Positions 1 through 8,037 of a stretch of DNA of 8,126 nt are shown piece by piece (position 1 is the first letter of the stretch; the number at the start of each line of letters is the position of its first letter). The position numbers were made by a program, and so were the translations under genes. Source of the stretch: a virus (lineage: Duplodnaviria; Heunggongvirae; Uroviricota; Caudoviricetes); the IMG/VR virus record IMGVR_UViG_2609460125_000011. One strand, given 5' to 3'. Below the pieces are notes generated by a model. That model worked only from the letters and a program-made list of their open reading frames with translations, was not told where the DNA came from and ran no database searches.

Positions 1-234
1 GGTGGAAAGCTTCTGGGGAACGCTGAAAAATGAGAGCCTGAGCCACTATCGTTTTAATAACCGGGATGTAAGCCATCTCAGTAATACGGGAATACATTGA
101 GATTTTCTACAATCGTCAGCGTTGTCACTCTCGTCTGGGGAATATCTCCCCGGCAGCCTTCAGGGAAAAATATCATCAGATGGCTGCTTAAAAAAAGAAC
201 AAATGGTAGTGTCCGCTATTGCCAGTACACCTCA
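1..234 (+). mobile_element. 3' end of an IS3-family (IS600-like) insertion sequence, partial; continues left of the window and ends with terminal ...CACCTCA at 234
   Basis: Bases 1-234 are about 98% identical to the reverse complement of 6903-7136. They encode the conserved IS3-family OrfB C-terminus (ESFWGTLKNESLSHYRFNNRD...RRHSRLGNISPAAFREKYHQMAA) followed by a terminal inverted repeat ending in CA. Confidence 0.8.
2..190 (+). pseudogene. IS3-family transposase OrfB C-terminal fragment, frameshifted
   Basis: Translation gives VESFWGTLKNESLSHYRFNNRD, then loses frame at an extra T near position 69 (gatgTaagcc versus gatgaagcc in the other copy). The frame is regained only conceptually, ending ...FREKYHQMAA with stop at 188-190. 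Confidence 0.7.
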
Positions 235-395
235 TTCAGATATGTCAGCAGCCCAAACAGCAGACTCCCCAGCACGCCTATTGCCGCCCACTGAGACGGG
301 GAAACCCTGTCCAGCAACTGCAGGAACCAGTAGCCCGTTCCCACCGCTGACGTGGTGTATGACACACCTGTTGTGATTTTTTCCATCTGGTCCAT
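216..395 (-). pseudogene. S21-type (class II, pinholin-like) holin, 3'-truncated by IS insertion
   Basis: Translation from ATG at 395 is [54 protein letters not shown], with the dual-start Met1/Met4 motif and two hydrophobic segments typical of S21 holins. A GGAG Shine-Dalgarno sits 7 nt upstream. The frame enters the IS terminal repeat at 234/235 and stops at 216 after IS-derived codons (EVYWQ); the charged C-terminal tail is missing. Confidence 0.75.
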
Positions 396-425
396 ACCCC
401 GTCTCCCGTTATCCGGAAGCTGACA

Positions 426-460
426 ACAATAAAAAAGCCACCAGTTAACTACTGATGGCT
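426..460 (-). terminator. Rho-independent terminator immediately upstream of the holin
   Basis: Minus strand reads AGCCAUCAG-uaguuaa-CUGGUGGCU (9-bp stem, one G-U pair) followed by UUUUUUAUUG. Confidence 0.5.
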
Positions 461-702
461 CTGATAACTCATGCAAGCGTCTCAGACGACCCACTGACAC
501 TACCGGTGAGTTTAACGATACCTTCCATTTGACTGGCTCACTTTTTATGATGATGCCGGTGCATTTATCTCCAGCACCAGACTTTCTATCTCAACGCCAT
601 ACGTTGCATTTTTGGTAATATCCGTCAGCGTCAGTGCATTTAGTCCCACTGCCAGACTGTCTTTTATGGCCTGGAATGCCGGGCCAGTACGATGACGTAG
701 TA

Positions 703-906
703 TCACTCCGGCTCAGTTGCACCACTGACCACCACATCACCTTCTGCTGCAATCGCCTGCATCAGGGTATAAGGGGTTATGGCCACCGGACTACCAAACG
801 GCTGCCAGCCCTCTTTCAGTTTATGTGTCAGCTTTTCCGCAAGATCTGACGGCGGCGCCGCCCTGACAACATCATAGTGTTTAAATGCCATGGTTCTTTC
901 CAACAT
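703..906 (-). CDS. Small conserved prophage protein of unknown function (possibly DUF1737-like)
   Basis: 67-codon ORF (MLERTMAFKHYDVVRAAPPSDLAEKLTHKLKEGWQPFGSPVAITPYTLMQAIAAEGDVVVSGATEPE) with normal GC and an SD-like GGAAAG before the internal Met at 891, which may be the true start. Family assignment is from memory only. Confidence 0.5.
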   Translation of the reverse strand: MLERTMAFKHYDVVRAAPPSDLAEKLTHKLKEGWQPFGSPVAITPYTLMQAIAAEGDVVVSGATEPE

Positions 907-1150
907 CTGAAAAATAATTCTTTAAAATACCTGACATGTAATACAGAAAAAACACAAAACCATACCTTAAATAAAAACCTGATTATCAAGCAGATATGCA
1001 TGGATAAACTACAAGACGAGATATAAACCACCCTGCATTTAAATAAACAATAAACAACATCAGAAAAATAATTCTGCTCTATGGTTTAATTCAAAAATAT
1101 CATTTATACTTTTCAGAACATCACCAGCAAGGCATAAACAAGGAAACTAA

Positions 1151-1486
1151 ATGAAGTGGATTGTGATTGATACAGTTATCCAGCCATCATGCGGAATATC
1201 TTTTTCAGTCATATGGAGTAAAATAAAATTAATAATCTGGTATCAATCGGATGCTTTCTTACCTCCTGAAAGTATATTTACACTGACTCACACAGGCATC
1301 ATGCTCAATAACAAAGTGCTACCTGTAACCATTTACAACGTAGTACCATTCAATAAAACATTCTGGAATTTAATCAAAAACAGCCAGGAATGCCCTACAA
1401 ATACAGATAACGTATTGAATGAATGCTTTAATAACCGTTGCACTCTGCAAATATGTCCTTATGGACTAAAACAACAAAGTCCATAA
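1151..1486 (+). CDS. Hypothetical AT-rich cargo protein with a C-terminal four-cysteine cluster
   Basis: 111-codon ORF with AGGAA Shine-Dalgarno 6 nt before ATG, AT-rich upstream region with a TATACT -10-like hexamer, and low GC relative to neighbours. Six of 13 Ile codons are AUA. C-terminus reads [27 protein letters not shown]. No homolog recognised. Confidence 0.5.
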
Positions 1487-1489
1487 GGA
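1456..1489 (+). other. Perfect 12-bp inverted repeat spanning the stop codon of the 1151-1486 ORF; possible terminator or RNA stability element
   Basis: TCCTTATGGACT (1456-1467), 10-nt loop, AGTCCATAAGGA (1478-1489), followed by GTTTACTC. Confidence 0.4.
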
Positions 1490-1521
1490 GTTTACTCACA
1501 TCTGACAAAATCAATATAAAC

Positions 1522-1541
1522 AGCCCCTCCGGAGAGGGGCT
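1522..1541 (-). terminator. Rho-independent terminator for minus-strand transcripts leaving the cargo region
   Basis: AGCCCCTC-tccg-GAGGGGCT hairpin (8-bp GC-rich stem) followed on the minus strand by GUUUAUAUUGAUUUUG. The plus-strand side lacks a U-tract. Confidence 0.5.
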
Positions 1542-1933
1542 GGAGAGTGGCGCTATGTGCCATTCCATGGTGCCGGGTGCCTCCCGGTGAATTCAGTACC
1601 AGCACCTGAATCCGCGATTATCCCATATACCTACTCGCTGATTGCCCCTCCGCACAGGGGGATTCACCATGCCAGTTTCTTTTAACAAACTCCCCGCAAA
1701 CCAGACAACAGTCAACCGCCTGAATTGTGAAGTATTTAAAAATTTCTCCCGCTAACTGATACCCGGCTAACAGTCTGGCGTTTTCTTTTTCAGCAACGGG
1801 AAAGCAACAACCACCACACCCGCCACCAGCACACCGTCAGCCGGCACTGACATTATCCGGCTGCTGCAATGCCATTAACAAAAACAGTAAGCAATCACTT
1901 TTTACCGTAACAGGTGATAATCCAGATATGTAT

Positions 1934-2287
1934 CTACCCCAGATGAGTAATCCGAAGTTCATCCATACCACAGGTCCTGGCTATTCTGTTGTACTCCTGA
2001 ACAAGAGCAAATAATTCTGAATTAGCAACCATGAACTCATCGCAAACCCTCTGTATAGCATCACTATTCAGAATAATAACGTCTCTTCCCGAAAGACGAT
2101 CAGGAGTACAGAACAAAACTGTCAAACGGCTGAAGGCCTTTGCTCGTGCTGCATTGACTATATCAATACGCTGCCTAAGGATGAAACACCCCGACGCCTC
2201 ATCAATATTCACTCTACCCACACCATATGAATGATAAATACTTAATGCTGAAAAAACCATTAGACCGTATAACAAATACTCAATCAA
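1934..2287 (-). CDS. Hypothetical cargo protein directly downstream of the phage tRNA genes
   Basis: 117-codon ORF with hydrophobic N-terminus (MIEYLLYGLMVFSALSIY...). Six of 11 Arg codons are AGA/AGG and 3 of 11 Ile codons are AUA, matching the adjacent tRNAs. Start is TTG, or ATG at codon 10, with no convincing Shine-Dalgarno, so expression is uncertain. Confidence 0.35.
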   Translation of the reverse strand: MIEYLLYGLMVFSALSIYHSYGVGRVNIDEASGCFILRQRIDIVNAARAKAFSRLTVLFCTPDRLSGRDVIILNSDAIQRVCDEFMVANSELFALVQEYNRIARTCGMDELRITHLG

Positions 2288-2397
2288 TACTTAACAGAAC
2301 TTTTATTTTTGACAAATATATAATATTTTCAACAATATCCTGAGCCAGGTATATTTCAGTATAAGGCTCTGCCGGAAGGAATCTGGAAGAATGAATA

Positions 2398-2474
2398 TGG
2401 CGCGCTGTACTGGATTCGAACCAGTGACCGATTGCTTAGAAGGCAATTGCTCTGTCCGGCTGAGCTAACAACGC
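2398..2474 (-). tRNA. tRNA-Arg (anticodon UCU), phage-type
   Basis: 77-nt cloverleaf on the minus strand: acceptor GCGUUGU/ACAGCGC, D-stem GCUC/GAGC, anticodon stem AUUGC/GCAAU with loop CUUCUAA, T-arm ACUGG-UUCGAAU-CCAGU, discriminator G, encoded CCA. Differs from chromosomal argU. Confidence 0.85.
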
Positions 2475-2575
2475 TGAATACCGATAATGGACCGCCATCG
2501 GGGACCCGCCCCCCGCACCAACAACCCTGTTATCGTGTCGTCTGCTCTTCCTGATAAGCTAATGGCGGTTTGTGA

Positions 2576-2651
2576 TGGTGGCCCTTGCTGGATTTGAACC
2601 AGCGACCTGGCGATTATGAGTCGCTCGCTCTCACCACTGAGCTAAAGGGCC
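2576..2651 (-). tRNA. tRNA-Ile2 (anticodon CAU, lysidine type; ileX/ileZ-like)
   Basis: 76-nt cloverleaf: GGCCCUUUAGCUCAGUGGUGAGAGCGAGCGACUCAUAAUCGCCAGGUCGCUGGUUCAAAUCCAGCAAGGGCCACCA. Close to E. coli ileX in arms and anticodon stem-loop, and not like tRNA-Met. Confidence 0.8.
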
Positions 2652-2690
2652 GGGAGCAGAATAATAACGGTCCGTAATTAATTTCGCAAT

Positions 2691-2715
2691 AAAAAAACCC
2701 GCTCAGCGGCGGGTT
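2691..2715 (-). terminator. tR'-like intrinsic terminator of the short late leader RNA
   Basis: Minus strand reads CCCGCCGCUGAGCGGG followed by a 7-U tract, about 50 nt downstream of the late promoter. Confidence 0.65.
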
Positions 2716-2762
2716 GTAGAAACTCTTCTAACGCCAGGCATAAAACGCCCATCATTATGACG

Positions 2763-2790
2763 AATTTACCACAGATTCCGGAAAAATCAA
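2763..2790 (-). promoter_or_regulatory. Putative late promoter (pR'-like) downstream of Q
   Basis: Minus strand TTGATT (-35), 16-nt spacer, TAAATT (-10), immediately after the Q stop codon and upstream of the tR'-like terminator. Confidence 0.5.
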
Positions 2791-2795
2791 CCTTG

Positions 2796-3617
2796 TTACC
2801 TAGTTACCTTTTTTAACTGCCGCTCAGCCCATGCTTCTTCAATATCAAACCGGGTCACCAGCGCATCATAAAATTTCTTAACTGTTTTTTCCCATGACGC
2901 GCGTGTTATCTGGTTTGTCACCTCGCATATAGCATTAAATGCCTCCGTTGATGGTAGTCTTTCATAGCCACGACCACCACAACGCTGGCAGTCTCTGATA
3001 ACAGGCATACCACGTTTTACCGACTCTTCACGATGAATGGCGACACCACGCCCACGGCAATCCTTACAGGCGGTGGAAACCTCACCCTTTCCGCCACACT
3101 CCGGACAGGCAACTTTTACCACCTCCCTGACTTTTTTCCATTCTTCCCAGTAAGACGGATACACACCTTTCGTACACTTTGCCCATACCGGCGGCTTACC
3201 ATCCGGATACTGGATCTTGTTTGTAAAAACTATGCTTTCAATAAATTTTTCCCCATAGCAACAAGGGCACTGCTTTTTACTCGCTGCGCTGCGGGCATAA
3301 TCCTCAAAAGCGTACGAAGCCATAATGCGCATCACTACCGGTTTTATTTCTGCCGGAAGTTTTCTCAACGCCGCCACACGATCGCACCGACTGAGTGCAT
3401 AATCTGCCAGTAATTCTGTTGCCCGCGCCCTGTCATTCATACTGATGCCCATTTTCCCCAGGAACGCAGAAAAACCCATCTCAGCCCGATTCTGTGTCAT
3501 GCCCTGCGCGGCCATCACATCAGTGATACTCAGCGCATCTTTTGACGTTGAGGCCGATGCATCGGTCAGGCCAGGGGATTTTGGGGAGTAGTATTTCGGT
3601 AAATCTTCCAGTTTCAT
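2796..3617 (-). CDS. Late-gene antiterminator Q-like protein with a DnaJ-like cysteine-rich repeat region
   Basis: 273-codon ORF placed where Q sits in lambdoid phages (after the nin/rusA region, before the late promoter, tR', tRNAs and holin). Contains CPCCYGEK, CPECGGKG, CKDCRGRG and CQRCGGRG motifs. Resembles the QuuQ/YdfT family from memory. Confidence 0.7.
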   Translation of the reverse strand: MKLEDLPKYYSPKSPGLTDASASTSKDALSITDVMAAQGMTQNRAEMGFSAFLGKMGISMNDRARATELLADYALSRCDRVAALRKLPAEIKPVVMRIMASYAFEDYARSAASKKQCPCCYGEKFIESIVFTNKIQYPDGKPPVWAKCTKGVYPSYWEEWKKVREVVKVACPECGGKGEVSTACKDCRGRGVAIHREESVKRGMPVIRDCQRCGGRGYERLPSTEAFNAICEVTNQITRASWEKTVKKFYDALVTRFDIEEAWAERQLKKVTR

Positions 3618-3631
3618 TTTTTGACCTGCTC

Positions 3632-3988
3632 TTAATGCATTATGGGGTAAATCTTCACCCCCAGACGTCCACCAGATACTGGCTGACCACGAACGATATT
3701 GATTTCATCAAACTGCTCATCGTCCATTAACACTCCCGCATGCGTCAGCGCATCCAGCGGTGCTTTCAGGATATTGTCCAGGTCGCGACGACGCTTATCC
3801 GGTGGCTCTGCAATCACCTTTATCGCCAGCCTTCCGGACAGGCTTAATTTCAGCCGCTGCTGGCGAACAATAAGCGCCACAGCCCGGCGATAACGCTTTC
3901 CCTCCTCCGAGATAAAATATGTGCTGCCACGGCGTCGCCAGTAAGTGTTCACCGTCGGCGGGTAAGGTAAAACCAAATCTATGAGCAT
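3632..3988 (-). CDS. rusA: RusA-family Holliday junction resolvase
   Basis: 118-codon ORF with GAGGTGA Shine-Dalgarno. Contains the conserved RusA core PDKRRRDLDNILKAPLDALTHAGVLMDDEQ (compare E. coli RusA [30 protein letters not shown]). Confidence 0.85.
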   Translation of the reverse strand: MLIDLVLPYPPTVNTYWRRRGSTYFISEEGKRYRRAVALIVRQQRLKLSLSGRLAIKVIAEPPDKRRRDLDNILKAPLDALTHAGVLMDDEQFDEINIVRGQPVSGGRLGVKIYPIMH

Positions 3989-4000
3989 CAGTCACCTCTT

Positions 4001-5050
4001 TTACCCAAGCACGCCAGTTGCAAAGGCGTGATCAAGAAAACGAAAAATTAAATCAACCTGAGAACCATGCTTTTCTTCGAACGCCAGAGGATCCGCATGA
4101 AGCTCGTTGTGATGCTCCCGACACAGCGGTAGCGTGAAAATATCGTGAGATTTGGTCCCCATTCCGCCCTGACCATGACCAATCAGGTGATGGGGATCGT
4201 CGGCTGGCTTACCACAACACGCACACGGCTGTGTCTTCACCCAGCGTTTGTATTTCTCGTTAACCCAGCGGCGACGTTTAGGTCGTTTCATGAAAGATTC
4301 CGGAGACTCAGGATCAACGGCAATGCTGACCACCGTCTTTTCCTGTTGTGGGTTCTGTTGCTGGTGGGCGTGAGGCAGCGGCGCAAGATTTTTTGTGCGC
4401 TGTTTCAGTATGCTGGTGGCGGTCTGCTCTCCCGGTACGATGTCGCTTTCACGGTACATTGAGCGGATTTTTTCCGCACGCAACCCCAGCGAACGACGTA
4501 ATACCGCTTCCGGTAGCGCGTCCGCCACCTGATTGCGGACCGCCCACCAGGATAATTCAGCTAGAGATAATTCACGCTCCTGCGTACCGCTTATTGCGTG
4601 ACCGATGACGTCAATCATCCATGCTGACAGGTTTTGATGAGCAAGTTGCTCGAGTGATTCGGATGTCTGGTCACGCAGCTGGTTGTCGCAGTGCCAGCAC
4701 AATACCATTGCGCCGGTACCATAACGGTGAATGACGGTTTCGCTGTGATGATAATCGCCGTGTGGCCACTGGCAGGATTTAATATGGCGCAACAGCCAGT
4801 CAGACAATGCGCCAGCACCACCAGCAGCACGAATCACCCGTGCGTTACTGAAAAACGGCAGCAATGTTTTGTCTTCCACTAGCGGCTGGCGAACGGCAGG
4901 AACGACCCCGGACGGCAGATTACGCATGCTTTTCGGTTCCGGCTCCACCAGTACCCGGGTATTGTGGAATACCGGCATGGATTCACGACCGGGCTTAAGG
5001 ACCACCAGCCCGAGTTCCGGAACCAGAACAGGTCGAAGTAATACCCGCAC
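4001..5050 (-). CDS. ydfU: YdfU-like prophage protein (DUF968-type) with a C-terminal HNH-like Cys/His motif
   Basis: 349-codon ORF with GTG start preceded by GGAGG. Its stop lies in the Shine-Dalgarno region of rusA, suggesting coupling. C-terminal CACCGKPADDPHHLIGHG...CREHHNELH. Same length and position as ydfU in the K-12 Qin prophage as I recall it. Confidence 0.7.
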   Translation of the reverse strand: MRVLLRPVLVPELGLVVLKPGRESMPVFHNTRVLVEPEPKSMRNLPSGVVPAVRQPLVEDKTLLPFFSNARVIRAAGGAGALSDWLLRHIKSCQWPHGDYHHSETVIHRYGTGAMVLCWHCDNQLRDQTSESLEQLAHQNLSAWMIDVIGHAISGTQERELSLAELSWWAVRNQVADALPEAVLRRSLGLRAEKIRSMYRESDIVPGEQTATSILKQRTKNLAPLPHAHQQQNPQQEKTVVSIAVDPESPESFMKRPKRRRWVNEKYKRWVKTQPCACCGKPADDPHHLIGHGQGGMGTKSHDIFTLPLCREHHNELHADPLAFEEKHGSQVDLIFRFLDHAFATGVLG

Positions 5051-5129
5051 GTTACCTCCAGATCCGTTGCTGGAATGTGCGGGACGGACGCGGTGGCTGT
5101 TCGGAGTAAGGGAGCCTGACGGAGATTAT

Positions 5130-5330
5130 CTAGTGACGGTAGTCGAGGCTAAGGGCTTTTTTAACCTCGCATCCGCGCCTGCGGTAACACTGAATAAGCC
5201 ATTCGGCCTGTTCTTCAGTGCATGAGGGATGCTGGTACCAGTCTGACTTAAATGCGTGAGAATACCGCTCGTGCGTGTGGGCAAGAACGGTCGAATTATC
5301 ATGATTGTAATATTTTGCGTTGCGTGCCAT
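5130..5330 (-). CDS. Hypothetical small protein
   Basis: 66-codon ORF (MARNAKYYNHDNSTVLAHTHERYSHAFKSDWYQHPSCTEEQAEWLIQCYRRRGCEVKKALSLDYRH) with GGAG Shine-Dalgarno 7 nt upstream of ATG. Confidence 0.5.
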   Translation of the reverse strand: MARNAKYYNHDNSTVLAHTHERYSHAFKSDWYQHPSCTEEQAEWLIQCYRRRGCEVKKALSLDYRH

Positions 5331-5396
5331 CGGTTTTCTCCGGTGGCACGGTGTTACTCAGCGGGAGTTCAGCCCCGCGCAAGATTGTAGATGAGT

Positions 5397-5648
5397 TTAT
5401 TCTTCTGAAAAAGCAGAAAAGCCAGCTTTTATTCCGATCTCTTTCAATGCCTGTAATGAAGTGACAAACTCACCGTCGCGCAAGATAAATCCGTCCGTCA
5501 CTCGGGCATCCACAAAATTAATTAACGCAGCCCCATTTTTTTGCAAACACACAATGCGGTAATGACTAACAATATTTCCATTTTCAACGCACACAGCATA
5601 GAGGCCATCTTCACAAAAAATTTTACGCAGTTCTTCGATGTTCATCAT
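5397..5648 (-). CDS. rem: Rem-like small prophage protein
   Basis: 83-codon ORF with GGAAGGA Shine-Dalgarno, a promoter-like TTGAAG-18-TAGAAT upstream, and a position between ydfU and hokD as in Qin. Assigned by length and synteny, not sequence. Confidence 0.55.
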   Translation of the reverse strand: MMNIEELRKIFCEDGLYAVCVENGNIVSHYRIVCLQKNGAALINFVDARVTDGFILRDGEFVTSLQALKEIGIKAGFSAFSEE

Positions 5649-5765
5649 CAGAATCCTTCCAGATAAGTAGCACTCCCCTGTTCGGGGTCCATCCCTTTTA
5701 TCCCTGCGCGCTACTTAAGTATTTTTGATTCTATTCCGGCACCATCCAGAACTTCAAATGCGTTG

Positions 5766-5798
5766 AAAATAAAAACAAAAACCCGCCGAAGCGGGTTT
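5766..5798 (-). terminator. Rho-independent terminator of the relB-relE-hokD operon
   Basis: Minus strand ACCCGC-uucg-GCGGGU hairpin followed by UUUUGUUUUUAUUUU. Confidence 0.6.
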
Positions 5799-5865
5799 AG
5801 TGCGGGTGCGTTGAGGATGCCTGCCACATCAGAGGTGGCGAGGGATTTCTCACTCGCCGGGTCTC

Positions 5866-6021
5866 TTACTCCTCAGGTTCGTAAGCTGTGAAGACAGCGA
5901 CCTCCGTCTGGCCGGTTCGGATTCGTACCTCGCAGAGGTCTTTCCTCGTTACCAGTGCCGTCACTATGACGGTTAAACAGATGACGATCAGGGCGATTAA
6001 CATCGCCTTTTGCTGCTTCAT
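5866..6021 (-). CDS. hokD: Hok-family type I toxin (HokD/RelF)
   Basis: 51-codon ORF below the ORF-track length cutoff: MKQQKAMLIALIVICLTVIVTALVTRKDLCEVRIRTGQTEVAVFTAYEPEE. Matches E. coli HokD as I recall it and has the Hok-family single transmembrane helix. Confidence 0.85.
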   Translation of the reverse strand: MKQQKAMLIALIVICLTVIVTALVTRKDLCEVRIRTGQTEVAVFTAYEPEE

Positions 6022-6092
6022 AGCCTGCTTCTCCTGTCAACGCAAAGCAGAAGTGTCACCTTCGGTGCGAAACAGAGATGTCATGCTTTGGT

Positions 6093-6380
6093 TCAGAGAA
6101 TGCGTTTGACCGCCTCGCTATATACTTCCGAGCGTTCTCTTTTCCCAACAGAAATCACGAAAACGACAACTTTCTCGTCTATAACCTGGTATACAAGGCG
6201 ATAGCCTGAAGACCGGAGCTTAATCTTGTAACAATCAGGCATACCACGGAGCTTGTTTGCTTCAATCCGGGGTGACTCAAGTACTTCAACCAGCTTCTTT
6301 TTCAACTGTTCACGTACCGTCGAGCCCAGCTTTCGCCATTCCTTTAGTGCCCGCTCGTCAAAATCCAGAAAATACGCCAT
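6093..6380 (-). CDS. relE: RelE mRNA interferase toxin (type II)
   Basis: 95-aa product MAYFLDFDERALKEWRKLGSTV...VISVGKRERSEVYSEAVKRIL is essentially E. coli RelE. Its ATG overlaps the relB stop (ATGA). Confidence 0.95.
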   Translation of the reverse strand: MAYFLDFDERALKEWRKLGSTVREQLKKKLVEVLESPRIEANKLRGMPDCYKIKLRSSGYRLVYQVIDEKVVVFVISVGKRERSEVYSEAVKRIL

Positions 6381-6619
6381 CAGAGTTCATCCAGCGTCAC
6401 ACGTACTGGCTTAGGATTACGAAGCCGTTCTTTCACTATCTCCACAAGTTCAGCATCTTCATCACTCAGGAGTGTCTGTTTGAACGGCAAGCGTTCATTG
6501 TCAGCGATATACTCGAGCATGAGACGAAGCGCTTCAGAAGGAGTTACACCCATTTTTTCAAGCGCGGCGTAAGAACGCGCTTTAAGTTCATCGTCAATAC
6601 GCAGGTTAATGCTACCCAT
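6380..6619 (-). CDS. relB: RelB antitoxin (type II)
   Basis: 79-aa product MGSINLRIDDELKARSYAALEKMGVTPSEALRLMLEYIADNERLPFKQTLLSDEDAELVEIVKERLRNPKPVRVTLDEL is essentially E. coli RelB. Confidence 0.95.
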   Translation of the reverse strand: MGSINLRIDDELKARSYAALEKMGVTPSEALRLMLEYIADNERLPFKQTLLSDEDAELVEIVKERLRNPKPVRVTLDEL

Positions 6620-6700: not shown

Positions 6701-6946
6701 AAAGTAGTCGTAAGAACGGTGATCACTGTCCGCTTTGTGCCAGGAGCAGCCATTGCTAAGTCCATCCTGTATTGTGCAGGTCAGCTCTTTTTTAAAGAGT
6801 CCGGCCATCATCTTACTGGTACAGACACCATATACTTTGTGACGGTCAGGCTACATATGCACAACTCAACTTATTCATCTATTTTTTGCTTTAGCATGTC
6901 AGTGAGGTGTACTGGCAATAGCGGACACTACCATTTGTTCTTTTTT

Positions 6947-7734
6947 TAAGCAGCCATCTGATGATATTTTTCCCTGAAGGCTGCCGGGGAGATATTCCCC
7001 AGACGAGAGTGACGACGCTGACGATTGTAGAAAATCTCAATGTATTCCCGTATTACTGAGATGGCTTCATCCCGGTTATTAAACGATAGTGGCTCGGGCT
7101 CTCATTTTCAGCGTTCCCCAGAAGCTTTCCATCGGAGCGTTGTCGTAACAGTTACCTTTACGCGACATTGATGTTTCAGACCAGACTGCTCCTGTATGAC
7201 CCGGTAATCGTATGCGCAGTACTGTGAACCTCGATCAGAGTGGTGGATTAGCCCGGCAGGTGGGCGCTGGCTCCTGAGCGCCATAAACAGGGCTTTACCT
7301 GTCAGCTCTTTTGTCATGCGCTCTCCCATGGCGTAGCCGACAATTTCGCACGTATAAACATCTTTGATGCCAGCAACATACGTCAGGTCCGCCACCCAGA
7401 CCTGATTTGGTGCTGTAGGAGCGAACGTCTGGTTCAGCAGATTTGGCGCAACTGGCAGATTGTGGTTCGGGTTCGTAGTCGCTCTGAACTTGCGTTTCTG
7501 CTTACAGCGTAGCCTCAGCTCCTTACGAAGACGTGCCAGTCGGTCACGACCAACGATGATGCCATTCTCTGCCAGCTCCGTCTGGAGCCGCCGGGTTCCA
7601 TATGTTTCGCGAGTGCGGATATGTGCCACCTTAATCTCCGGTTTTAGCCGCTCATCACTTTGTTTTCTGTCTGAGGGTTCATGCTGTACCCAGTTGTAAT
7701 AACCGCTCCTGGATACACCAAATACCTGACACAT
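6947..7734 (-). pseudogene. IS3-family transposase OrfB (DDE catalytic domain), frameshifted and internally deleted
   Basis: MCQVFGVSRSGYYNWV...NQVWVADLTYV-AGIKDVYTCEIVGYAMGERMT...LIHHSDRGSQYCAYDY, then loses frame. The conserved C-terminus MSRKGNCYDNAPMESFWGTLK...FREKYHQMAA is present out of frame with single-base losses in A and T runs. The segment after DLTYV that normally carries the conserved GWLYL motif is absent. Confidence 0.75.
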
Positions 7735-7848: not shown

Positions 7849-8037
7849 TTAACGCCTTACGCAGTTGCAGAATTTCAGATTCCAGTTCAGCCACCGTGCG
7901 GTAACCAGGAGTCCTGAGCTCCCTTCAGGCGGCGGTAACCCATAAGCGCCTTCACTGATCGAAAGTTGATTTTCAAGAACCGTTCTGACAGCTTCGGCTT
8001 TGAACTCTTTAGAGTAACGTTGGGTTTTTCTGCTCAT
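7849..8037 (-). pseudogene. IS3-family transposase OrfA (helix-turn-helix N-terminus), disrupted
   Basis: MSRKTQRYSKEFKAEAVRTVLENQLSISEGA... starts at 8037 with a Shine-Dalgarno upstream. The frame is lost before the conserved TVAELESEILQLRKALNEARLERDILKK segment, which is present only in another frame, implying an internal indel. Confidence 0.75.

What the first reader, a model, noticed from the sequence alone, without database searches (positions are those of the whole stretch)
2967..3269. Q-like antiterminator carries four DnaJ-like CxxCxGxG zinc-finger repeats
Residues about 117-217 contain CPCCYGEK, CPECGGKG, CKDCRGRG and CQRCGGRG, the repeat pattern of the DnaJ cysteine-rich domain, which binds two zinc ions. 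Lambda Q has a single zinc-binding motif, so this arrangement implies a different fold or mode of engaging RNA polymerase or the qut DNA. I do not know whether this has been characterised for this Q family.
Basis: seen in the sequence. Interest (0 to 1): 0.45.

Follow-up and report, generated by a model that had tools for sequence, protein, structure and literature searches.

The report
Lambda-type Q antiterminator with second zinc ribbon
This is an ordinary, very common prophage late-gene antiterminator of the lambda Q family. Its two extra cysteine motifs most likely form a second zinc ribbon inserted next to the one lambda Q already has; most of the family has this feature, but nobody appears to have studied what it does.

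Summary
The 273-aa ORF at 2796-3617 (-) carries four CxxCxG motifs at aa 117, 171, 184 and 210, exactly within 2967-3269. None of 200,000 shuffles gave three or more.

The protein belongs to the lambda-Q family (Pfam PF03589, E 6e-55; lambda Q in the PDB, E 3.5e-40). It aligns to lambda Q end to end except for a 68-aa insert (aa 114-181) that holds motifs 1 and 2. Motifs 3 and 4 correspond to lambda Q's own zinc ribbon (C118/C121/C144/C147).

An AlphaFold model (pLDDT 91) keeps the lambda Q fold (TM 0.80). The insert forms a long beta-hairpin with motifs 1 and 2 at its base. That implies two zinc ribbons in tandem, not the nested DnaJ arrangement.

The four-motif form is the majority type of the family. 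It includes phi80 Q and K-12 YdfT/QuuQ. This allele (at least 80% nucleotide identity) occurs in 2,495 of 5,426 complete E. coli genomes.

A lambda-like late promoter, pause element and terminator follow the gene.

A natural pair of Q proteins with and without the insert shares the same Q-binding element, so the insert probably does not read DNA sequence. Its role is unknown; I infer a contact with RNA polymerase or a bracing function.

This is a known object with one modest open structural question.

The parts
2796..3617 (-). Q gene: 273-aa late-gene antiterminator of the lambda-Q family (stop codon 2796-2798)
   Evidence: ORF. Pfam PF03589 at E 6.3e-55, matched in two stretches. Lambda Q 7ubm_Q at E 3.5e-40. 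Foldseek to 7ubn_Q gives E 3e-15 and TM 0.80.
3279..3617 (-). aa 1-113: N-terminal segment plus the first half of the helical body. In lambda Q the N-terminal part refolds into the RNA-exit-channel nozzle.
   Evidence: Aligns without gaps to lambda Q 1-113. Helices at 31-107 in the model, with low pLDDT at aa 10-30. The roles of the lambda Q regions are taken from PMC9388147.
3075..3278 (-). aa 114-181: 68-aa insert absent from lambda Q, interpreted as a second zinc ribbon
   Evidence: It falls in the gap between lambda Q residues 113 and 116. hhalign of insert against arm gives 94.8% probability and E 5e-8. dN/dS is 0.25 across 66 alleles.
3246..3269 (-). Motif 1, CPCCYGEK (aa 117-124)
   Evidence: C117 and C120 are at least 90% conserved.
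3108..3245 (-). aa 125-170: long beta-hairpin (strands 125-136 and 159-170) with an aromatic-rich loop
   Evidence: DSSP on both AlphaFold models. Across relatives the whole insert (aa 114-181) ranges from 28 to 77 aa, and the variation lies in this hairpin segment.
3084..3107 (-). Motif 2, CPECGGKG (aa 171-178)
   Evidence: C171 and C174 are at least 90% conserved.
2958..3074 (-). aa 182-220: the canonical Q 'arm', a zinc ribbon homologous to lambda Q 116-154. It carries motif 3 CKDCRGRG (3045-3068) and motif 4 CQRCGGRG (2967-2990).
   Evidence: Alignment to lambda Q C118/C121/C144/C147. Superposes on the lambda Q arm at 1.5-1.7 A over 41 residues with 39% identity. The four Cys are invariant.
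2799..2957 (-). aa 221-273: C-terminal half of the body, which holds the helix-turn-helix in lambda Q
   Evidence: Aligned to lambda Q 155-207. Helices 223-231 and 239-272.
2763..2790 (-). pR'-like late promoter: -35 TTGATT (2785-2790), 16-nt spacer TTTCCGGAATCTGTGG (the candidate Q-binding element), -10 TAAATT (2763-2768)
   Evidence: Read from the sequence. Same layout as lambda pR' and the annotated phi80 pR'. The block is almost invariant in 70 related loci.
2748..2756 (-). Sigma-dependent pause element AATGAT followed by GGG (lambda has AACGATGGG)
2689..2715 (-). Intrinsic terminator (tR'-like): stem 2696-2715 followed by a T run
   Evidence: Terminator scan. Conserved in related loci.
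2398..2651 (-). Two tRNA genes directly downstream of the terminator: CAU anticodon (Ile2/Met) at 2576-2651 and Arg-UCU at 2398-2474. They are the first cargo of the Q-dependent transcript.
   Evidence: ARAGORN. RefSeq annotation of a relative lists tRNA-Ile and tRNA-Arg.

Best explanation
The ORF encodes a late-gene antiterminator of the lambda-Q family from a Qin-like lambdoid prophage of E. coli or Shigella.

By homology to lambda Q, the likely mechanism has four steps. The helix-turn-helix body and the zinc-ribbon arm bind a Q-binding element between the -35 and -10 of the promoter just downstream. The protein loads onto RNA polymerase paused at the AATGAT sigma-dependent pause element. 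Its N-terminal segment forms a nozzle on the RNA-exit channel. The polymerase then reads through the terminator at 2689-2715 into the tRNA and lysis genes.

The four CxxCxGxG motifs are most likely two zinc ribbons in tandem. Motifs 3 and 4 form the canonical lambda Q arm. Motifs 1 and 2 sit at the base of a long beta-hairpin within a 68-aa insert at the junction of body and arm. The insert looks like a duplicate of the arm.

What is shown: family membership, the insert boundaries, conservation of the eight Cys, the predicted fold, and the promoter, pause and terminator layout.

What is inferred: binding of two Zn ions, the 1+2 / 3+4 pairing, and the role of the insert. The insert enters exactly between the lambda Q residues (110-112 and 117) that touch the beta' zinc-binding domain. 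A natural pair with and without the insert uses the same Q-binding element. I therefore infer that the second ribbon braces the arm or adds a contact to RNA polymerase, rather than reading DNA sequence.
For: Family membership:
- PF03589 at E 6e-55.
- Lambda Q chains in the PDB at E 3.5e-40. The alignment is gap-free for aa 1-113 (lambda Q 1-113) and aa 182-273 (lambda Q 116-207).
- PHROG 127, 'anti-termination protein Q-like'.

Fold:
- AlphaFold model with pLDDT 90.9 and pTM 0.79.
- The best PDB match is lambda Q in the engaged loading complex, TM 0.80.
- The arm superposes on the lambda Q zinc ribbon at 1.5 A over 41 residues.

Tandem pairing of the motifs:
- Two 12-residue strands (125-136 and 159-170) lie directly between motif 1 and motif 2.
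- Lambda Q and other short forms lack motifs 1 and 2 together.
- P0132 and P0163 are closely related outside the indel (57% identity over the whole alignment, in which the 67-residue indel counts as gaps). Their indel runs from the first Cys of motif 1 to the first Cys of motif 3.
- Minimal forms have motifs 1 and 2 only 14 aa apart.
- The insert aligns to the arm by hhalign at 94.8% probability.

The insert is maintained: dN/dS is 0.25.

Context:
- DUF968, RusA, Q, promoter/terminator, tRNAs, holin.
- The promoter, pause element and terminator resemble lambda and phi80 and are conserved in 70 loci.

The Q-binding element is the same with and without the insert.

Lambda Q contacts are taken from PMC9388147.
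Against: - No coordinates were available, so Cys-Cys distances in the model could not be measured. The pairing is inferred from secondary structure, superposition and indel patterns.
- Zinc binding and antitermination activity were not tested.
- The prophage is decayed. IS600 copies flank the region and truncate the holin gene, so this copy may no longer drive lysis.
- Motifs 2 and 3 lie 13 aa apart, a spacing at which anti-TRAP binds one zinc with adjacent motifs. A 2+3 / 1+4 pairing is therefore sterically conceivable.
- The proposed RNA polymerase contact for the insert rests only on where the insertion point lies.
Confidence: 0.8

Rival explanations
1. The four motifs form a true DnaJ-type cysteine-rich domain with nested zinc centres (motifs 1+4 and 2+3). 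Such a domain would have been acquired from or shared with DnaJ and would confer a chaperone-like or thiol-active function.
For: - The motif type is the same.
- Pfam DnaJ_CXXCXGXG at E 2e-6.
- TIGR02349 DnaJ at E 1.4e-6.
- The module profile hits the DnaJ cysteine-rich domain 1exk at E 1.6e-5.
- Some database records even name relatives 'chaperone protein DnaJ'.
Against: - The Pfam score of 28.4 is below the curated cut-off of 32.7.
- Motifs 3 and 4 are homologous to the crystallographically defined lambda Q zinc site and superpose on it at 1.5 A.
- Motifs 1 and 2 are gained or lost together.
- There is no J domain, G/F region or DnaJ C-terminal domain.
Confidence: 0.06
2. The insert is an extra DNA-reading element that extends or changes the Q-binding element, giving long-form Q proteins a different qut specificity.
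For: - The lambda Q arm contacts the major groove through residues near the zinc ligands, and the insert sits next to it.
- The window-type spacer (TTTCCGGAATCTGTGG) differs from lambda's.
Against: - P0132 (with insert) and P0163 (without insert) are closely related outside the indel and have the same lambda-like element TGAATAAAA(A/T)TG. Sequence upstream of their -35 is not conserved.
- The hairpin varies greatly in length, with the insert spanning 28-77 aa, and is not markedly basic.
- Differences in the Q-binding element between Q types can be explained by divergence of the helix-turn-helix and the arm.
Confidence: 0.1
3. In this particular locus the gene is a relic. The prophage is decayed, so the Q protein no longer has a phage function and the motifs are simply inherited.
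For: - Two inverted IS600 copies flank the segment and the left one cuts the holin gene.
- No window-length match was found in complete genomes beyond 236-6035.
Against: - The ORF is intact and close to identical to thousands of copies.
- dN/dS is 0.13-0.25 across alleles.
- The promoter, pause element and terminator are intact.
- This rival concerns present use, not what the protein is.
Confidence: 0.3

Closest known systems
Bacteriophage lambda Q (207 aa; PDB 4MO1, 7UBJ-7UBN)
   Same: - Same Pfam family (PF03589).
- The N-terminal 113 residues and the C-terminal 92 residues align without gaps.
- Same body and zinc-ribbon arm: TM 0.80, with the arm at 1.5 A.
- Same gene position.
- Same promoter, pause element and terminator layout.
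   Different: - Lambda Q lacks the 68-aa insert and so has two CxxCxGxG motifs and one zinc.
- The Q-binding element sequence differs.
- tR' lies about 45 nt from the pause element here, much closer than in lambda.
Phage phi80 Q (gp17, 269 aa)
   Same: - Same long architecture, with an insert of the same length (68 aa) and motifs 1 and 2 in the same places.
- The record annotates pR' with a Q-binding site between -35 and -10.
- From my own knowledge, it was the subject of Guo & Roberts 2004, J Bacteriol 186:3599. That paper is cited in PMC9388147 but is not held in the library.
   Different: - Only 41% identical.
- Motif 3 is C-x-C (CRCHGKG) rather than CxxC.
- The Q-binding element sequence differs (TCGCGGA).
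E. coli K-12 Qin prophage YdfT/QuuQ (250 aa)
   Same: Same neighbourhood (relBE, hokD, rem, ydfU/DUF968, Q) and the same four-motif architecture.
   Different: - 44% identical, with a shorter hairpin.
- No rusA gene between ydfU and Q.
- The late region carries cspB/cspF rather than tRNAs and iraM.
DnaJ cysteine-rich domain (PF00684; PDB 1EXK) and relatives (anti-TRAP, BSD2)
   Same: CxxCxGxG zinc knuckles. There is weak but specific sequence and fold similarity.
   Different: - The score is below the Pfam cut-off.
- The predicted topology is tandem rather than nested.
- There is a long hairpin between motifs 1 and 2.
- The module is embedded in a DNA-binding antiterminator, not a chaperone.

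Membership tests
Lambda-Q family of antiterminators (Pfam PF03589) | Sequence match above the curated family threshold | tested here: met
   183.7 bits against a cut-off of 26.7. E 3.5e-40 to lambda Q chains.
Lambda-Q family of antiterminators (Pfam PF03589) | Helical body with helix-turn-helix plus a Cys4 zinc-ribbon arm | tested here: met
   Model with pLDDT 90.9. TM 0.80 to 7ubn_Q. The arm superposes at 1.5 A over 41 residues. The four arm Cys are invariant. This rests on a prediction, not an experiment.
Lambda-Q family of antiterminators (Pfam PF03589) | Gene lies after the nin/rusA region and before the late promoter, terminator and lysis genes | tested here: met
   DUF968, RusA, Q, promoter/terminator, tRNAs, holin.
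Lambda-Q family of antiterminators (Pfam PF03589) | Late promoter with a Q-binding element between -35 and -10, and a -10-like sigma-dependent pause element in the initially transcribed region | tested here: met
   TTGATT, 16-nt spacer, TAAATT, 6 nt, then AATGATGGG. This has the same geometry as lambda, and the block is conserved in 70 loci. Binding itself was not tested.
Lambda-Q family of antiterminators (Pfam PF03589) | Antitermination and antipausing activity on RNA polymerase | not testable with these tools
   Needs a reporter or in-vitro transcription assay.
DnaJ cysteine-rich (CR) domain (Pfam PF00684) | Four CxxCxGxG repeats | tested here: met
   Four repeats are present, and motif 1 ends in K in this allele.
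DnaJ cysteine-rich (CR) domain (Pfam PF00684) | Sequence match above the curated family threshold | tested here: not met
   28.4 bits against a cut-off of 32.7. TIGR02349 scores 27.9 against 377.
DnaJ cysteine-rich (CR) domain (Pfam PF00684) | Nested zinc centres (motifs 1+4 and 2+3) in a V-shaped hairpin | tested here: not met
DnaJ cysteine-rich (CR) domain (Pfam PF00684) | Placed between a J domain/G-F region and the DnaJ C-terminal domains | tested here: not met
   No such domains were found by Pfam or NCBIfam.

The most novel reading that the evidence does not exclude
The second zinc ribbon and its long aromatic-rich hairpin may form a dedicated contact surface for RNA polymerase (the beta' zinc-binding domain or the flap) or for NusA. 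In that case the majority type of lambda-family Q proteins would load or hold on to the elongation complex differently from lambda Q, which would then be a stripped-down exception.
Probability: 0.3. Interest if true: 0.5.

Novelty: already known. Interest (0 to 1): 0.27.

Why it matters
Everything known structurally about this Q family comes from lambda Q. Lambda Q is the short form, and short forms are a minority: about 35 of about 45 full-length cluster representatives carry the second pair of motifs.

If the second ribbon touches RNA polymerase, the textbook loading model would need an extra contact for most family members. These include the Q proteins of many E. coli, Salmonella and Klebsiella prophages.

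Practically, the result corrects an annotation trap. Some records call these proteins DnaJ. The result also gives clean construct boundaries (aa 114-181) for a deletion test.

Apart from that, the gene is an ordinary, extremely common prophage regulator.

Tried and rejected
- **Literature:** six full-text searches found no paper describing the four-motif architecture or the insert. The nearest was a note that Acinetobacter phage Loki gp45 combines two CxxCxGxG motifs with an HHsearch match to lambda Q. Guo & Roberts 2004 (phi80 Q) and Vorobiev 2014 (the lambda Q structure) are not held. I therefore could not check whether they discuss the insert.
- **Fold searches:** the afdb50 library was unavailable.
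- **Related loci:** With A1 it returned mostly close alleles.
- **HNH nuclease idea:** a weak PHROG 559 hit (E 0.0014) was rejected. The protein has a single His, and the hit covers only the cysteine knuckles.
- **Other weak NCBIfam hits:** FmdB zinc ribbon, YnfU, ECs_2282 and TIGR02642 are all below their thresholds and reflect CxxC knuckles only.
- **Cys-Cys distances:** these could not be measured because model coordinates are not exposed.

Full report
**1. The observation**

The minus-strand ORF at 2796-3617 encodes 273 aa. The four motifs are:
- CPCCYGEK at aa 117-124 (window 3246-3269)
- CPECGGKG at aa 171-178 (3084-3107)
- CKDCRGRG at aa 184-191 (3045-3068)
- CQRCGGRG at aa 210-217 (2967-2990)

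In 200,000 shuffles of the protein no sequence had three or more C..C.G matches, against four observed.

In an alignment of 46 relatives, some only 25% identical, C184, C187, C210 and C213 are invariant. C117, C120, C171 and C174 are at least 90% conserved. The feature is real and selected.

**2. What the protein is**

Pfam gives PF03589 (antitermination protein Q) at E 6e-55, matched in two separate stretches. DnaJ_CXXCXGXG scores 28.4 bits, below its curated cut-off of 32.7.

Against PDB sequences the best matches are lambda Q chains (7ubm_Q, E 3.5e-40). Residues 1-113 align without gaps to lambda Q 1-113. Residues 182-273 align to lambda Q 116-207. The protein is therefore lambda Q plus a 68-aa insert (aa 114-181).

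Motifs 3 and 4 align to lambda Q's CRDCHGTG and CGRCKGVG. These are the four cysteines of lambda Q's zinc ribbon, the 'arm' (residues 114-152; PMC9388147). Motifs 1 and 2 lie in the insert. Lambda Q itself therefore already has two CxxCxGxG motifs making one zinc site, and this protein has twice that.

**3. Structure prediction**

With a 46-sequence alignment, AlphaFold2 gave pLDDT 90.9 and pTM 0.79. The best PDB match is lambda Q in the NusA-containing engaged loading complex (7ubn_Q, E 3e-15, TM 0.80 on the target). The first DnaJ-type chain appears only at E 0.28.

The insert forms strand 125-136, a loop with two short helices, and strand 159-170. This is a 12+12-residue hairpin that starts right after motif 1 and ends right before motif 2, which places those two knuckles together at its base.

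A separate model of aa 108-224 (pLDDT 89.9) superposes on the lambda Q arm at 1.5-1.7 A over 41 residues with 39% identity. The motif 3+4 site is thus retained as in the crystal structures.

The resemblance to DnaJ is therefore genuine at the level of the zinc knuckle. It is weak, and the predicted topology is tandem (1+2, 3+4) rather than DnaJ's nested 1+4 / 2+3. I could not read coordinates, so the pairing is inferred and not measured.

**4. Independent support for a self-contained tandem module**

- hhalign aligns the insert (motif 1 to motif 2) to the arm (motif 3 to motif 4) at 94.8% probability and E 5e-8. This is consistent with duplication of the ribbon.
- Across cluster representatives the insert varies from 28 to 77 aa. 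Minimal forms (P0127, P0137, P0156) have motifs 1 and 2 only 14 aa apart, so the zinc site is the conserved core and the hairpin is a variable decoration.
- Short forms lack motifs 1 and 2 together. They are scattered in a rough neighbour-joining tree built from body columns only.
- P0132 (269 aa) and P0163 (200 aa) are closely related outside the indel (57% identity over the full alignment, with the 67-residue indel counted as gaps). Their indel runs from the first Cys of motif 1 to the first Cys of motif 3. This is what unequal recombination between the repeats would produce.
- Across 66 distinct alleles the insert has dN/dS of 0.25, against 0.13-0.20 for the other parts. It is maintained but somewhat less constrained.

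**5. How common and how well known it is**

In a scan of 1.84 billion representative proteins the family has only 235 clusters at 50% identity. Of about 45 full-length representatives, about 35 carry the insert. The four-motif form is therefore the majority type and lambda Q is the exception.

Phages with long forms include phi80, ES18, mEp237, mEp460 and Stx2c phages. Phi80 Q (269 aa) has the same insert. Its record annotates pR' with a Q site. K-12 Qin YdfT/QuuQ (250 aa) also has four motifs.

This allele, at 80% nucleotide identity or more, occurs in 2,495 of 5,426 complete E. coli genomes, where it is annotated 'antitermination protein'. Precomputed Pfam annotation of relatives already lists PF00684 beside PF03589. 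One record is even named 'chaperone protein DnaJ'.

Six full-text searches found no paper discussing the insert. The phi80 Q paper (Guo & Roberts 2004) and the first lambda Q structure paper are not held. No long-form Q structure is in the PDB copy.

**6. Context and mechanism**

The window is a Qin-like lambdoid prophage segment. The gene order is relB-relE, hokD, rem, DUF968, RusA, Q, two tRNAs, iraM, holin.

Immediately after the Q stop codon, on the minus strand, lie:
- TTGATT (2785-2790)
- a 16-nt spacer, TTTCCGGAATCTGTGG
- TAAATT (2763-2768)
- six bases, then AATGATGGG (2748-2756)
- an intrinsic terminator (2689-2715)

Lambda has TTGACT, a 17-nt spacer, TAAATT, six bases and AACGATGGG. 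Phi80 has the same plan. In 70 related loci the -35/spacer/-10 block is almost invariant. It stays recognisable where Q is only 60% identical.

By homology to lambda Q (PMC9388147), the body and arm bind the spacer element. Q loads on the sigma-paused polymerase. The zinc ribbon contacts the beta' zinc-binding domain through lambda Q residues 110-112, 117 and 122-126. The N-terminus forms the exit-channel nozzle.

The insert enters between lambda Q residues 113 and 116, inside that beta' contact patch. The flanking RSAA(S/T) sequence is conserved.

**7. What the insert does**

This step is inferred. The P0132/P0163 pair gives a natural test. Both sit in intact nin-Q-lysis contexts. Both have the same lambda-like element TGAATAAAA(A/T)TG between -35 and -10. 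Sequence upstream of the -35 is not conserved between them. The insert is therefore unlikely to set DNA sequence specificity.

Given its position and its aromatic-rich loop, I consider a brace for the arm or an added contact to RNA polymerase the most likely role. I cannot distinguish these two possibilities.

**8. Caveat for this locus**

A 172-nt inverted repeat (70-241 and 6896-7067, 98% complementary) marks two inverted IS600 copies. Homology to intact prophages begins at 236, inside the holin gene. This copy sits in a decayed prophage and may no longer drive lysis, although the ORF and its promoter are intact.

**9. Verdict**

The object is a known and very common type of lambda-family Q antiterminator.

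The DnaJ likeness is at the motif level only. The fold is lambda Q plus a second, tandem zinc ribbon. The one open point is the function of that ribbon. It is a reasonable but incremental structural question.

Noticed in passing
window 70-241 and 6896-7067; transposase ORFs at 7108-7734 and 7849-8037: A 172-nt inverted repeat (98% complementary) marks the ends of two inverted IS600 (IS3-family) copies that bracket the whole holin-to-relB segment. The left copy cuts the class II holin gene at about 236-241, so the prophage is a remnant.
   Followed up: partly
window 2576-2651 and 2398-2474 (- strand): Two tRNA genes lie directly after the late terminator. ARAGORN calls the first Met (CAT), but RefSeq relatives annotate it as tRNA-Ile (presumably a lysidine-modified Ile2). 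The second is Arg (TCT). From my own knowledge, this placement resembles the tRNA genes of Stx phages.
   Followed up: partly
L002 (phi80 Q) and many representatives, e.g. P0123, P0128, P0140; aligned to window aa 184-187: In phi80 Q and most of one large clade the third motif is C-x-C (CRCxGxG) rather than CxxC. This is an unusual spacing for a zinc knuckle in an otherwise invariant site.
   Followed up: partly
window 2751-2756 and the matching site in L005-L075: Across 70 nearly identical late promoters the -35/spacer/-10 block is almost invariant. Positions 3-4 of the pause element AAnnAT vary widely (CG, TG, TA, CT, CA, AG, TT). The window itself has the minority form AATGAT.
   Followed up: partly
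L085 1501-2103 (P0163) and L086 1462-2271 (P0132): A natural pair of Q proteins with and without the insert. They are closely related outside the indel, which runs from the first Cys of motif 1 to the first Cys of motif 3, and both share a lambda-like Q-binding element. They would be useful material for an experiment.
   Followed up: yes
window 1151-1486 (+): An ORF in the late region matches what RefSeq annotates in relatives as the anti-adapter protein IraM. It lies on the strand opposite to the late transcript.
   Followed up: no
window 6093-6619 (-) and 5866-6021 (-): A relB-relE toxin-antitoxin pair and a hokD-like toxin ORF lie upstream of the DUF968-RusA-Q block, in the same order as in K-12 Qin.
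   Followed up: partly
window 1934-2287 (-): A 117-aa ORF between the tRNAs and the iraM-like gene has no Pfam match.
   Followed up: no
P0033 and other database relatives: At least one close relative (58% identical, 258 aa) is named 'chaperone protein DnaJ' in a public record. This is an annotation error caused by the CxxCxGxG motifs.
   Followed up: no
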